From Heteronotia binoei (Eukaryota), in NCBI RefSeq assembly GCF_032191835.1, contig NC_083230.1, positions 76,074,001 to 76,138,000 of the forward strand: DNA of 64,000 nt. The letters run 5' to 3'. The notes beneath the pieces were generated by a model that saw only the letters and a program-made list of their open reading frames with translations, was not told the DNA's origin and did no database searches. Made by a program: the position numbers and the translations under genes. Shown here piece after piece: positions 954 to 58,042 of the stretch (the stretch's first letter is position 1; the number at the start of each line of letters is the position of its first letter).

Positions 954-1604
954 ATGTCTGAAACGGCGCCTGCTGTGGCAGTTGCTGCTGCTGCCCCAGC
1001 TCCAGCCTCAAAGGCTCCGGCCAAGAAGGCGAAGAAGACTGGGGCAGCCAAAGCGCGCAAGGCTTCGGGTCCCAGCGTCACTGAGCTGATCACCAAGGCG
1101 GTGGCTGCCTCCAAGGAGCGCAAAGGCGTCTCTCTGGCAGCTCTCAAGAAAGCTCTGGCGGCCGGAGGCTACGATGTGGAGAAGAACAACAGCCGCATCA
1201 AACTGGGGCTCAAAAGCCTGGTGAGCAAAGGGACTCTAGTGCACACGAAGGGCATTGGCGCGTCTGGCTCCTTCAAACTGGGCAAGAAATCTAGCGAGGG
1301 GAAGGAGAAGGCCCCCAAGAAGAAGCCCGCCAAAGCCAAGAAGCCCGTGGCTAAGAAGGCCGCCGGGACAGTGAAGAAGCCCAAGAAGCCTGCGGCAGCT
1401 GCCAAGAAGAGCCCCAAGAAGCCCAAAAAGCCCGCAGCTGCCAAGAAGGCGGCCAAGAGCCCCAAGAAGGCAAAGCCTGTCAAGCCCAAGAAAGTGGCGA
1501 AAAGCCCTGCCAAAGCGAAGGCGGTGAAGCCCAAGACGGCGAAAGCCAAGACTGCCAAACCCAAGGCGGCAAAGGCGAGGAAGGCGGCGCCCAAGAAGAA
1601 GTAA
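954..1604 (+). CDS. H1: Replication-dependent linker histone H1 (216 aa, intronless)
   Basis: MSETAP N-terminus, globular domain [12 protein letters not shown]...GASGSFKL, Lys/Ala/Pro-rich tail with SPKK motifs, followed by a histone stem-loop. Confidence 0.98.
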
Positions 1605-52356: not shown

Positions 52357-52929
52357 GTGAGTAAAAGATTTCCCAGTCATCTAATGTTGCGTGCATAGTT
52401 AGCTTTTGCTGGAATGCCTTGCCAGAAGTTTTTGTAATCTATAGGTATCGTTTCTTCTCTGGCACAGATTGTTTTAATTTAATACGTTTGCCCCCCAAGG
52501 TCGGAATAAAGAGTCAGACACAATGCATTGGAATAAAATTGGGCCACTTTATTAACTAACAGCATAAACAGCAAGGGTACCCCACCAGCGGCCTGGTCAG
52601 GGCTAGGGGTCACCGCGACCGCTCCCCTGCCATTAACGGGCAAGAGACCCAGCCCCCCAGCCAGAGCTGAGCAACTCAGCTCCCTCCAGGCAGGCCCAGC
52701 AAGGAGGCACGCACCAGAGGGCCCCAAACCCAGACGCACGTCTCGCCAGAAAGGCACCCTCTAGCCGAGCCTCCTGGACAGTCTGCAATCTCCAAACCCG
52801 GGTCTCCAAACCCCAGGTTGTTCATGCCAGACCCCAAATTCCCCAAAAGGGGGATGCTTCGCAGTCCTCCCCTAGCCGCATAGTGTCCTAAACCCCAAAA
52901 ACCTGCCACTACTAAGGCCAAGTCTCTAC

Positions 52930-53535
52930 TTAGGGCTTAGCGCCCACCGGGAGGCCCAAGGCCACCCGCAACCCTTGCTGCAAATCTCTCAGAAAAAGCA
53001 TATTACCCTTTTCCGAGATATGGACCCCATCCCCTCTGTAGAGGCCAGGACATTTACCAAAATATCCGGATGGGGCAAATAGTGGCCCAACGCCCTTTCT
53101 AGCAGTTTTTTAAGTTCCTTGTTGGCCTTGTATCTAGCCCTTTCTATAACTGCGGGGTCCAAAGCACAACGCCATACCAGGCGGGGCAGCATGGCTGACC
53201 ACACTACGATGGTCCCCGGCCATCGCTCCCAATGTGCTGGAAATCATCACGGGCTTGCCATACCAAGGCCTTGCCCTTCAACAACCCCAGATCATTACCT
53301 CCCAGGTGAACAATTAAGATCTGAGGAGGAGGACCCGCTCTATGATTGAACCAAAATGGTAGCAAGCCCGGCCACTGAAGGCCCCGGAGCCCCTGCCATT
53401 TGATAACGGCATGCTGGCTGAGTCCCAGCTGAGAGCCGACCGCAGTTCTCCGTCCCTGAAGAGCGGCCCAAAACACGTGTCTATGGCCGCAGATGAGAAC
53501 TCGGCTCCGGCTCCTCTGGCCAGGAACAGCAGCAT
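52930..53535 (-). pseudogene. SGNH-hydrolase-like ORF of the Ngaro element (frameshifted)
   Basis: Block I VLICGH(R for S)HVFWA, block III IVHLGGND, block V YRGDGVH, stop at 52930-52932. Confidence 0.85.
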
Positions 53536-53589
53536 CTAAAGAGAAAAAACAGTTAACACAAACAGAACCAATAGCATTCCAACAACCAA

Positions 53590-54267
53590 AGTTACTCACG
53601 GCCTGCGAAAAGGTCGTACATAGCCTTATAGGTCGATGAATGCCACCGATCCAGCCTCCGAATAGAAGTAGCAGGATACCCCATGTCCACTGCTGTAGAG
53701 GCCGCCCCAGTCCAAAGGAGTGGGTCCCAAAACTGCACCCCTGACAACCCCAGCTCACAAAAAGCCCGAGCCGTCACCACTCAAGACTGGTGTCTCGTCA
53801 ACAGCTCGCTCACCCTAAGAGCCCCCAAAGAAGGCTAACAAGGACGCAGCATGGAACAAACATGCTTCAAAGGCGAAGCACACACGTCCAAGAACCTCAT
53901 CAAAACACGTAGAATCGGAGGAGAAAGGGGACTCCACGTATCAACCCTGGGACCGGCCTTTCTAGACCACCCCTCCCACATCTTTTGCAGACCAAAGTCC
54001 GCCGTGTCTTCCCTATAACCCTAGTGCCTTGCTGGCAAAAGCCAACGCAGACAGGCGCCCCCTAATGGATTGCACTGCCAACCCCTTACCTCTCAGCAAA
54101 ACACAGTAATGGAGTAATTCCTCCACCGTAAGGGGCCACACCCTGCGGTACCCTACCTCAGCCCTAAAGTCTTCAAACTGCCGCACAGCCCATTCGAAAG
54201 ACTTCCGTGTGCTAGGCGCAATGGCTAGACCTATCGCTCTGCAGGCCTCGGCTCTCCAATCAGCCAT
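53590..54267 (-). pseudogene. Ngaro tyrosine recombinase, internally deleted
   Basis: IAPSTRKSF, ALRVSEL, GTHSF, GAAST, RW.SSTYK. Confidence 0.85.
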
Positions 54268-54269
54268 AG

Positions 54270-55050
54270 CTCCTGGGGCATTGGCACTGGTCTGCCTCTG
54301 GGGCCAGCTGATGAAATCTCTCCATCTGTTGCTACCCCATTACTAACCCCAGGAACATGCTTGGCTAAAAACAGAATATTAAGCCACAAACAACGCAGAG
54401 TGAAGGCCCTCACCAATCTCATAACCTACCCAGATTTGGATGAGAGGGAATTAATGACGTGGACCACTGCCATATTATCACACCAAAATGAACGGTGTGA
54501 TTGGCCATATCCTTCCCCCACAGCCAAACTGCAACTAAGATGGGAAAGAACTCGAGAAACGTGAGATCCCGGTTCACCCCCACCCTTGCCCACAAATCAG
54601 GCCAGCTAGCCGCGCACCAATGTCCACGGAGCTCAGCCTCAATTCCTCCCCCCAAAAGGAGACTCCATTAAAAGACTCCAAAAATTCCTGCCAAACCCTC
54701 GAATCATCCCTCATGCTGCAAGTAACCCTAGCCCTATGCTGAGGCAAGCTTAATCCTGCCAAAGCATCACAAAGCCTCCTAAGAAAAGCCCTTCCGGGAA
54801 CGACCACTTTAATCCTTCCCTCAGCCAGCCCCTTGGCCATCTTATCCCTCACAACCTATTCCAAACCCCAAACAAACTTAAAGGTTACCTGATGTAAATG
54901 GAACTCAAGGACCCTGGAAAGGGATCTGAAACCAACTTTAAAACCCTCTAACAAATACCAACTATCAAGCCTTCGAGGGTACCTTGCCAGCCGCTGCTCA
55001 AGAGGTCCCACCCATATCGGGCTGGGTCCCTTTCTTAGCCGGAAAGGCTC
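54270..55050 (-). pseudogene. Ngaro pol remnant (RT N-terminus fused to RT end/RNase H; RT core missing)
   Basis: YLLEGFKVGFR, VRDKMAKGLAEGRI joined directly to VVVPGRAFLRRL, then FLEFFPILVAVWLW. Confidence 0.8.
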
Positions 55051-55059
55051 CTCCACCTC

Positions 55060-55980
55060 CTCCAGGCTACTTTGCACTCCTACGCCCCCGAGCTTTAGGA
55101 CAGTCATCAAAAGAGTGGGATCCCCTACACATGGGCATTCGTGCTTAAGCTGGCATGCTTTCCTATTACATACCCCAGGGGCTCCTAATTCCCAACAGAG
55201 CAAGCGGGGACATCATCTGCAGCCAAAGCTGCTGATGGATCCGATCCCATTGAAAAGACGGATACAGTCCACCTATTCCCCCTTTAAAGTTTCTCGCTGG
55301 TGGCAGAAAGCAGACGATCCCCAAGCGGTAAAGCAACCTCCCCAAAGGGCAAGGCTGCAAAAGGCACCATCGCATAAGGAGAAGGTGCCCCCTAACTGGT
55401 CCCGCCAAGTTCATATGCCCTCCGCCTGATCCCCGACAAGGTATGCATACCTGTCCATGCCCAATTTAGCGGTACACCCCGGAAGAAGCAGGCACCACCG
55501 TATTCACTCCTGAAGCACTCTGCCCAGCTGCCAAAGCAGGCCCCCATACACACCATGGCCAAACCTGCCCTGGCCCCACCTGTAAGTTATCACAACACCT
55601 ACTTCCAAGGCCAGCAGGAACCACTGGCAAACAAACACCGGACGTCCCAGCTGTATCCACCGCACCAGCATCAGGACCACTGAGACCGGCATCCCTGCCA
55701 GGCATGACTCTACCATACCTGTCCTCAAGAATAGACAGCCTGGTGAGAATGTTAACTTGCCTTGCCTTCCTGGATTGCCTCATCCCTTCCCCCCCACTTG
55801 GAGAAGGGACACCTGACACTTGCTCAAGCACCCTCAGCCTGTGCAGTATACTAGGTTCTACTGCTGCTCCATCCTCATCCCCCGATGATGACGGGGATGG
55901 TGGCCTCCTAGCAGGCACTCTAGACGGTATGGGTGCAGGCTTCTGCCATTAGGCTTGCCTGCGCCCATACCCCCAGCCAT
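55060..55980 (-). pseudogene. Ngaro gag-like ORF1 with C-terminal CCCH-like finger, frameshifted
   Basis: PARRPPSPSSSGDEDG..., PYAMVPF..LPLG, CWELGAPGVCNRKACQLKHEC. Confidence 0.7.
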
Positions 55981-56024: not shown

Positions 56025-56222
56025 ACATATGAACATATGACGCTGCCTTATACTGAATAAGACCCTCGGTATGCCAAAGACATCTCCTCCGACCTGCAGT
56101 GGCTCTCCAGGGTCTCAAGCTAAGTTTTTAACACCTATTTGCCTGGACCCTTTAAGTAGGAGATGCCGGGGATTGAACCTGGGACCTTCTGCTTACCAAG
56201 CAGATGCTCTACCACTGAGCAA
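56025..56222 (-). mobile_element. Squam3-like SINE within the Ngaro 5' region
   Basis: GCTCAGTGGTAGAGCATCTGC (A box), GGTTCAATCCC (B box), GAGACCCTGGAGAGCC body, TTCATATG tail. Confidence 0.8.
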
Positions 56223-56242
56223 CCCTTCCTCCCCAAGATGGA

Positions 56243-56362
56243 GAGCTGAGTCAGCCTGGAGCCGGCTACCTAAACCCAGCTTCCGCCAGGATCGAACTCA
56301 GGTCGTGTGCAGAGGGCTCCGACCGCAGTACTACAACTTTACCACTCTGCGCCACGGGGCTC
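56243..56362 (-). mobile_element. Sauria-SINE-like tRNA-derived head within the Ngaro 5' region
   Basis: GAGCCCCGTGGCGCAGAGTGGTAA (A box), GAGTTCGATCC (B box), GGTAGCCGGCTC..GACTCAGC. Confidence 0.7.
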
Positions 56363-56572: not shown

Positions 56573-57047
56573 TAGGCTTCCCAATCCCCAGGTCCCAGCA
56601 GGGGATCCCCTGGTTTTACAGGCTTCCCCCCTCCCCCAGCCAGCTGGCCGGCGGGGGAAGCTCCACCCCCACAGTCATTATGCACCTCCAGGAACGATTC
56701 TCATAGGGAATGATGGGGAATTGATCTGCGGGTGTCAGGGGCTCTGGGGGGGCTGTTTTTTGAGGTAGAGGTGCCAAATTTTCTGTATAGCATCTAGTGC
56801 CTCTCCCCAAAATACCTCCCAAGTTTCAAAAGGATTGGACCAGGGGGTCCAATTCTATGAGCCCCAAAAGAAGGTGCCCCTATCCTTCATTATTTTCTAT
56901 GGAAGGAAGGCATTCTAAAAGGTGTGCTGTCCCTTTAAATGCAATGGCCAGAACTCCCTTGGAGTTCAATTATGCTTGTCACACCCTTGCTCCTGGCTCC
57001 ACCCCCAAAGTCCCCAGATATTTCTTGAATTGGACTTGGCAACCCTA
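56573..57047 (-). mobile_element. hAT element nested in the Ngaro 5' region
   Basis: Same family as 36062; perfect TSD ccaccaaa. Confidence 0.9.
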
Positions 57048-57251: not shown

Positions 57252-58042
57252 AAAATGACCACTTCAGGATCGCAGGCTAAGGTCTTTCATGCCTAACTGC
57301 CTGCACCCCTTATAGTTGGAGATGCTAGATATGACCACTGAGCCCCTGTCCCTCCTGGCCGTCAGGATAGCAGGCTGAGGTTTTTCACGCCTATCTGCCT
57401 GCACCCTTTATAGCTGGAGATTGACCACAGAGCCCACATCCCTCCAGGCTGTCCTCTTCCCAAAAAATAAAAAGGGGGGGGGGAGGCAGACCACCCGACC
57501 TCTCAAGAACCCCCCCCCCCCGTTCAGAGACCCTTGTAGCCAGACAGCTCACTCAAACACCAATGACCCCCTCACAGAAAGGCTGACCACCCCCAGCCCA
57601 ACGCAGCTCAAACTCCTGGAGACTCAGCCAGACGCCGCTGCCAAAACGCCGCCTAAGACGATCCTCAGCCAAAGGAATGGCCGCCGATGCAGCGACAGGC
57701 TCCCGACCGTCCGATAGGAAGAACCTGCAACGAAGCTTCCCCAAAGCTGCTGTAACGAAGCTGTTACATGCAATAACTGACCACATCCGATCAACGACGG
57801 AGAGAACTGAGGGGAACGTGGAGGCTAGCCGTTAAAGCGGCTAGCCCCGCCCCTCACATTGCGCGCCCAAACGGGCGACTTCTGACTTCTCCCTCCCAGG
57901 GAGGCAAACAGCGCAGAAGCAGCCTAGCAGCTACGCTGCAGGCTGCAAGCTTCTGATTCTCTATAGTTTAGATATTTATCATTACAATATGTATCATTAC
58001 CTCACCATGGCATTTGATCTATATTTATTCCTTGGTTTATAG

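What the first reader, a model, noticed from the sequence alone, without database searches (positions are those of the whole stretch)
52930..55452. SGNH hydrolase of the Ngaro element looks expressed by env-like splicing as a gag-SGNH fusion
Seen on the minus strand: the SGNH frame has no in-frame ATG near its start. It begins right after a textbook 3' splice site (branch GTTAAC, TGTTTTTTCTCTTTAG|, AG at 53537-53536) and needs a phase-1 upstream exon. A donor CAG|GTATGC (intron start 55450) is phase 1 in the gag frame ...PLNWAWT-G, giving in-frame ...WAWT-D-AAVPGQRSRSRVLICGH. That donor sits in a perfect 14-bp palindrome (AGGTATGCATACCT, 55439-55452), so it is donor-like on both strands. A second donor GTGAGT (53599) overlaps the inferred YR stop and defines a 64-nt mini-intron. 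Known: some Ngaro elements carry an SGNH ORF; I do not know of a described expression route. Inference: a subgenomic spliced mRNA that skips pol/YR, analogous to retroviral env. This copy has Ser-to-Arg at block I and frameshifts, so the gag frame assignment is provisional.
Basis: partly seen in the sequence, partly recalled or inferred. Interest (0 to 1): 0.7.

Follow-up and report, generated by a model that had tools for sequence, protein, structure and literature searches.

The report
Ngaro retrotransposon splices Gag onto enzymes
Exactly spliced copies in this gecko genome show that sister families of a jumping gene (Ngaro) join the front of their gag gene in frame to their esterase gene or to their recombinase gene; the family in this window likely does the same, from a donor 152 bases upstream of the one first proposed, which would explain how these buried enzymes are made.

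Summary
The core idea holds; the proposed donor is wrong. The window carries a decayed, internally deleted Ngaro retrotransposon. The SGNH acceptor (AG 53537-53536) is kept in 66 of 66 family copies. The likely donor is 55602 (GT in 54 of 54, phase 1); a RefSeq gecko model uses it. Two independent genomic copies of a sister family lack exactly the GT-AG intron and read Gag-N-SGNH in one frame. Four more copies join Gag-N in frame to a second acceptor before the recombinase (54325). Thirty database proteins from nine squamate species have the Gag-N-SGNH layout. SGNH is under purifying selection (dN/dS 0.12-0.31). Not shown: a junction read, an intronless copy of the window's own family, the protein, its function. 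The product resembles LINE esterase ORF1p in layout. I found no description in print. This scan already reported the mechanism on other DNA, including this genome; the recombinase-acceptor lead came from those notes and was tested here.

The parts
57787..57958 (-). A1 split direct repeat, 5' end of the Ngaro element
   Evidence: Recurs as A2 after B1 in complete copies L044, L048, L053, L055, L067; A and B repeats 99-100% identical in L072, L080, L089
56573..57047 (.). Passenger insertion in the 5' leader, hAT-MITE-like (label recalled; 8-bp flanking duplication TTTGGTGG), carried by the window's subfamily
   Evidence: Sequence; shared by L031, L032, L035, L037, L038 and absent from L040 onward; other copies elsewhere in the window
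55603..55980 (-). Gag 5' exon (start ATG 55980 to donor); basic start, acidic patch, two predicted helices, linker; frameshifted with a stop in this copy
   Evidence: matches residues 1-126 of P0022; helices in the model of a leopard-gecko homolog
55597..55602 (-). Likely true 5' splice donor, phase 1 (GAA|GTAGGT here, GAG|GTAGGT in 46 of 54 copies)
   Evidence: GT in 54 of 54 mapped copies; used by RefSeq model P0022 at L097; same position as GTAAGT donors of sister families that were spliced
55439..55452 (-).
   Evidence: No GT in 19 of 19 mapped copies with open SGNH; palindrome in 12 of 66
54328..55020 (-). Remnant RT/RNase H coding region with large internal deletions (approximate bounds)
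   Evidence: Deletions of about 280-440, 720 and 240 bp against relatives; RVT_1 hit on L049
54326..54327 (-). Second 3' splice acceptor (AACAG|ATGGAG, phase 1) in front of YR; the pyrimidine tract is deleted in the window's subfamily
   Evidence: AG in 75 of 78 loci (lies in RNase H coding sequence); four genomic Gag-N-to-YR joined copies
53596..54325 (-). Tyrosine recombinase frame, broken and internally deleted here; internal ATG at 54267
   Evidence: Phage_integrase and SAM-like hits on L049
53536..53562 (-). SGNH 3' splice acceptor: putative branch region, pyrimidine tract, AG at 53537-53536
   Evidence: AG in 66 of 66 copies; joint of intronless copies L096 and L104 falls exactly here
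52930..53535 (-). SGNH hydrolase exon; block I Ser-to-Arg and frameshifts in this copy
   Evidence: Lipase_GDSL_2 E 2.8e-7 on L062, just under the curated cut-off; SGNH fold Z 19.3 for a homolog
52487..52915 (-). B repeat; this copy ends here, without A2-B2

Best explanation
Sister Ngaro families in this genome have left copies that lack exactly the GT-AG intron from a donor in 5' gag to the SGNH acceptor (2 copies) or to the YR acceptor (4 copies), and the window's family likely uses the same programme from the donor at 55602. One phase-1 donor about 127 codons into gag is either ignored (full-length RNA: Gag and template), joined to the acceptor before YR (Gag-N-YR), or joined to the acceptor before SGNH (Gag-N-SGNH, about 330 aa). 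Spliced RNAs keep both terminal repeats, so they are occasionally copied back in trans. Shown: conserved sites, phases, exact intron loss in sister families. Inferred: that the fusions are translated; that the shared Gag-N (basic peptide plus two helices) brings both enzymes into the Gag particle; that the esterase targets it to membranes like the ZfL2-1 ORF1p esterase (about 0.35 for this last step). The window copy itself is a dead, deleted derivative.
For: L096 and L104 join ...CCTG|ATGCTG. Of 19 relatives, 16 have GTAAG at that point, and all 13 with a mapped acceptor have TAG there. Both copies carry A1 and B1-A2-B2 repeats and arose separately (AU p 0.019). L138, L143, L145, L146 join Gag-N in frame to the YR acceptor (4 of 10 pattern hits); 11 of 11 L143 relatives read have GCTG|GTAAGT at the joint. 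P0022 maps 100% to L097 exons bounded by GTAGGT and TTTAG. 30 of 102 SGNH homologs, from 9 squamate species, match a gecko Gag-N profile and none of the 30 has the Gag core. SGNH dN/dS is 0.12-0.31 in 15 of 15 pairs. In run X1 a contig starts at the acceptor AG and another ends about at the donor (weak hint).
Against: No junction contig among the 10 joints listed for runs X1 and X2, and an unspliced contig spans the acceptor there. No intronless copy of the window's own family (0 found; searches score only the best candidates or exact matches). RefSeq models are predictions and may borrow from each other. The YR acceptor lies in conserved RNase H codons, and YR has its own ATG 20 codons further on. 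Synonymous invariance at the donor is not significant alone (35 of 109 four-fold columns are invariant). An intronless copy shows that splicing happened, not how often or that it is needed.
Confidence: 0.88

Rival explanations
1. One reading: the splice uses the donor at 55450, giving ...WAWT-D-AAV.
For: CAG|GT in phase 1 in 33 of 54 mapped copies, including the window; it could be a minor alternative donor in decayed subfamilies.
Against: No GT in 19 of 19 mapped copies with open SGNH frames. P0022 and all six spliced copies use the upstream position. The pattern would have caught such a joint and did not.
Confidence: 0.05
2. SGNH is made without splicing, by reinitiation at a nearby ATG, by read-through of the YR stop, or from an internal promoter.
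For: In-frame ATG in 23 of 65 copies. YR and SGNH lie in one frame with only the YR stop between them in 9 of 19 copies. An unspliced RNA contig spans the acceptor.
Against: The ATG sits at three different positions and is missing in 42 of 65. The frame relation is broken in 10 of 19. Some subfamilies with intact SGNH have a stop 7 codons upstream. Does not explain exact intron loss.
Confidence: 0.07
3. The splice is real but serves control: it diverts RNA from full-length Gag/RT (element or host restraint), and the fusion is a dominant-negative or incidental product.
For: Gag-N-SGNH lacks the Gag core and could interfere with assembly; compatible with all the DNA evidence.
Against: Purifying selection on SGNH and invariant G-H, GND and near-invariant Ser and D-x-x-H residues across squamate and amphibian homologs point to a useful enzyme fold. 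The same donor also feeds YR, which the element needs.
Confidence: 0.15
4. The intronless copies are DNA deletions that happen to fall on splice-like motifs.
For: These elements carry many internal deletions.
Against: Six copies from different subfamilies break at the same two acceptors. In the two families whose relatives were read, the break is exactly at GT, with one shared base. All joints are in frame.
Confidence: 0.01

Closest known systems
Hydrolase-bearing Ngaro elements, Xenopus DIRS-53_XT and DIRS-54_XT (PMC9210276, passages read)
   Same: Split direct repeats A1...B1-A2-B2; gag, RT/RH, YR and an SGNH ORF after YR
   Different: That paper calls the hydrolase of no proven function and has no occurrence of 'splic' or 'intron'; here SGNH and YR are joined to Gag-N by splicing
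Esterase ORF1p of non-LTR elements, ZfL2-1 (PMC3905857, abstract, passages and one section read; PDB 4c1b)
   Same: Coiled coil or helices, basic motif, poorly conserved linker, then SGNH esterase; 4c1b is the best though weak sequence hit in the PDB (E 0.033)
   Different: There it is the whole ORF1 in one exon; here the layout is built by splicing in an element that also has a full Gag. Activity and lipid binding are untested here
Retroviral and gypsy env, avian leukosis env with a few gag codons, foamy virus spliced pol (recalled, not from a call)
   Same: Subgenomic spliced mRNA that skips pol to reach a 3' ORF
   Different: Product is a soluble enzyme fused to about 127 Gag residues; two alternative acceptors; the integrating enzyme is a tyrosine recombinase
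Bdelloid Vesta LTR elements with GDSL-esterase ORF3 (PMC5408684, passages read)
   Same: SGNH esterase as an extra 3' ORF; the paper notes that ORF3s are typically expressed from spliced messages
   Different: LTR/integrase elements; those ORF3s lack coiled coils and no Gag fusion is described in the passages seen

Membership tests
Ngaro YR retrotransposon | Split direct repeats A1 ... B1-A2-B2 | tested here: met
   Complete in L072, L080, L085, L089; window copy has A1 and one B only
Ngaro YR retrotransposon | gag-like ORF1, overlapping RT/RH, tyrosine recombinase | tested here: met
   ORF map; RVT_1 and Phage_integrase above cut-off
Ngaro YR retrotransposon | Hydrolase ORF after YR, no methyltransferase | tested here: met
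   Pfam on RT/RH, YR and SGNH ORFs showed no methyltransferase
Ngaro YR retrotransposon | RT phylogeny within the Ngaro clade | not tested
   No RT tree against reference elements was built
SGNH hydrolase | Blocks I (Ser), II (Gly), III (Asn), V (Asp-x-x-His) | tested here: met
   GHS, G, GGND, DGVH in family and homologs; window copy has Arg for Ser
SGNH hydrolase | SGNH fold | tested here: met
   Model of homolog P0023: Z 19.3, rmsd 3.8, 183 aligned to PAF-AH 1bwp; Foldseek E about 1e-7
SGNH hydrolase | Esterase activity | not testable with these tools
   Needs an assay
Major-spliceosome intron (gag to SGNH) | GT-AG ends, pyrimidine tract, exact removal | tested here: met
   Exact loss in L096 and L104; for the window's family only site conservation and the P0022 model
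Major-spliceosome intron (gag to SGNH) | Junction seen in RNA | tested here: inconclusive
   Two small contig-only runs; no joint listed, contig ends fall at the sites in X1
Retroviral-type env | Signal peptide, transmembrane fusion glycoprotein | tested here: not met
   Product folds as helices, linker and a soluble SGNH domain; works like env in RNA route only

The most novel reading that the evidence does not exclude
Ngaro retrotransposons run an alternative-splicing programme in which one Gag leader exon is the shared assembly tag for the recombinase and the esterase. Splicing thereby builds, convergently, the same helix-linker-esterase protein that LINEs encode as ORF1p, giving YR retroelements a membrane-targeting step, and spliced RNAs are themselves mobilised as non-autonomous elements.
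Probability: 0.4. Interest if true: 0.8.

Novelty: new variant of a known kind. Interest (0 to 1): 0.62.

Why it matters
How the overlapping 3' ORFs of DIRS-order elements are expressed, and what the Ngaro hydrolase does, are stated as open in the papers read. This defines the likely real proteins (Gag-N-SGNH, Gag-N-YR) and their junctions, so both questions become testable. It also explains a set of 'uncharacterized' reptile RefSeq genes as transposon splice products, and links YR elements to the LINE ORF1p esterase problem.

Tried and rejected
Donor 55450, palindrome and 53599 mini-intron: rejected. A strong phase-1 donor-like site inside YR (54089, GTAAGG in 56 of 56): no genomic joint to the SGNH acceptor found; left open. 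Searches for an intronless copy of the window's family: none among 123 and 150 scored hits or by exact patterns (4 hits, 2 spliced sister-family copies and 2 unrelated insertions at the acceptor; 2 hits, neither Ngaro). L140 and L141 looked like donor-to-YR joints by pattern but are local changes; L139, L142, L144, L147 are small changes at the acceptor. RNA: only two runs of one study with 0.05-0.07 of the words; the first lay was crowded by high-copy repeats; depth differences between bins were not used. Gag-N two-copy complex prediction gave no answer (score 0.03). Synonymous-site test not significant. No acceptor for RT was found or directly tested. Literature: Ngaro+SGNH 2 hits, one work; Ngaro+splic+retrotransposon+tyrosine recombinase 18; Ngaro+hydrolase+retrotransposon 22; esterase+retrotransposon+SGNH+ORF1 5; DIRS/spliced set 36, 25 listed; one search was uninformative. 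None of the listings or passages seen describes this splice. [quoted passage not shown]

Full report
The element. The minus strand from 57958 to 52487 is one copy of a large retrotransposon family (3021 first-look candidates, 40 scored). Relatives show A1 at the 5' end and B1-A2-B2 at the 3' end, and ORFs for gag, RT/RH, YR and an SGNH hydrolase: the Ngaro layout described for Xenopus DIRS-53_XT (PMC9210276, passages). The window copy belongs to a decayed subfamily with internal deletions, frameshifts, a passenger insertion in the leader and no A2-B2. The genome is a gecko's: one locus matches a Heteronotia binoei RefSeq protein at 100%.

All motifs are at the stated coordinates. I compared 66 family copies one by one; they were chosen by SGNH similarity, so exon conservation is partly by construction. 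The acceptor AG is present in 66 of 66. The donor at 55450 has GT in 33 of 54 mapped copies and in 0 of 19 mapped among the 21 copies picked for open SGNH frames. The palindrome is in 12 of 66, where six bases present in other subfamilies are missing. The 53599 site has GT in 40 of 63 and is phase 2 in the YR frame. An in-frame ATG upstream of the acceptor is present in 23 of 65 copies at three positions. YR and SGNH share a frame with only the YR stop between them in 9 of 19 copies. Neither reinitiation nor read-through is a conserved route.

The real donor. Searching with the SGNH domain returned many longer database proteins. P0022 reads the Gag N-terminus to ...PAGLG and then DAAVPGQ. It maps at 100% to locus L097 as residues 1-126 and 127-277, with GGAG|GTAGGT and TTTTAG|ATGCTG at the intron ends. 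The same donor is at window 55602, phase 1, with GT in 54 of 54 mapped copies and GAG|GTAGGT in 21 of 21 of the open-frame set. The window copy has GAA|GTAGGT. A profile of gecko Gag-N matched 30 of 102 SGNH homologs, from Heteronotia, Eublepharis, Gekko, two Anolis, Elgaria, Rhineura, Hemicordylus and Pogona; none of the 30 holds the Gag core. These are predicted models whose RNA support I could not see. Amphibian homologs also have long low-complexity N-termini, but they did not match the gecko profile.

Direct fossil evidence. A search with P0022 found one place matching residues 1-278 in one frame. L096 is an element with A1 and B1-A2-B2 that encodes only Gag-N-SGNH. With its joint as query, nearly all of 40 hits stopped at the joint, and one other copy, L104, ran through it. 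Of 19 relatives read, 16 have GTAAG right after the joint, and all 13 with a mapped acceptor have TAG before the SGNH exon, with introns of 2.6-4.1 kb. L096 nests with unspliced copies and L104 lies apart; one origin is rejected (AU p 0.019). Only one base is shared across the joint, so this is splicing followed by re-insertion; restored terminal repeats suggest the element's own pathway (inference). An exact genome-wide pattern found 4 hits: these two and two unrelated insertions at the acceptor.

A second acceptor. Earlier notes of this scan proposed an in-phase acceptor before YR, and I tested that. AACAG|ATGGAG at window 54325 is phase 1 for YR, with AG in 75 of 78 loci, but it lies in RNase H codons. 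A pattern search gave 10 hits; four (L138, L143, L145, L146) join Gag-N in frame to this acceptor and six are local changes. For L143, 37 of 39 relatives' matches end at the joint and 11 of 11 read have GCTG|GTAAGT. An Elgaria isoform (P0009) carries a YR-start-like stretch between Gag-N and SGNH (by eye). No spliced copy of the window's own family was found.

RNA. Two contig-only runs of one study hold the family; their letters match the open-frame copies best (28 of 29 sites). No gag-to-SGNH joint is among the 10 joints listed. In X1 a contig of depth 22.6 starts at the acceptor AG, an unspliced contig of depth 8.5 ends 28 bases into the exon, and a contig of depth 18.4 ends about at the donor. 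A splice branch in an assembly graph would look like this, but it is a weak hint only.

The protein. A model of the leopard-gecko homolog P0023 shows two helices (35-54, 72-94), a disordered linker and a confident SGNH domain, nearest PAF-acetylhydrolase (Z 19.3). Catalytic blocks are conserved and dN/dS is 0.12-0.31 in 15 of 15 pairs of six open copies (three broken copies were dropped). The layout parallels esterase ORF1ps of LINEs, in which a coiled coil and a linker precede an active, phospholipid-binding esterase (PMC3905857). I infer that Gag-N recruits both enzymes to the Gag particle and that the esterase targets membranes; neither was tested.

Verdict. A known element with an expression route I did not find in print (searches; key older reviews not read). 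The scan has reported it before in this and other genomes. Splicing programme 0.88; new variant of a known kind; interest 0.62.

Noticed in passing
window 54325-54327 (minus): Second phase-1 acceptor in front of YR; four genomic Gag-N-YR spliced copies in related families (L138, L143, L145, L146).
   Followed up: yes
window 54089 (minus): Strong phase-1 donor-like site GAG|GTAAGG inside the YR 5' part, GTAAGG in 56 of 56 mapped copies; an Elgaria model has a YR-start exon before SGNH, so a three-exon form is possible.
   Followed up: partly
window 56573-57047: MITE-like insertion with an 8-bp flanking duplication that travelled with the window's subfamily in its 5' leader; a SINE-like piece near 56030-56360 likewise.
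   Followed up: partly
L031-L069: Most copies of the window's relatives end after one B repeat and lack A2-B2, as if by recombination between B repeats.
   Followed up: no
L046, L062, L066-L068, L043, L048: Several copies have deletions whose 3' ends cluster at window 53679-53685, cause unknown.
   Followed up: no
L134:1133-1503: AT-rich insertion exactly at the SGNH acceptor with a flanking duplication of about 15 bp, LINE-like.
   Followed up: partly
P0003, P0004, P0013, P0014: RefSeq models in which host genes (DUSP12, keratin, zinc finger 318-like, vomeronasal receptor) are joined to the Ngaro SGNH sequence, suggesting the acceptor can capture host transcripts.
   Followed up: no
P0110-P0131: Poison-frog proteins with a shared N-terminus and one or more SGNH domains, many isoforms; possible host gene derived from the fusion.
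   Followed up: no
window 53508-54068: One X1 contig (depth 25.9) joins these two places with unknown letters between; unexplained.
   Followed up: no
window 1308-1472: Lys/Ala/Pro-coding repeats that look like a histone H1 tail (recalled resemblance).
   Followed up: no
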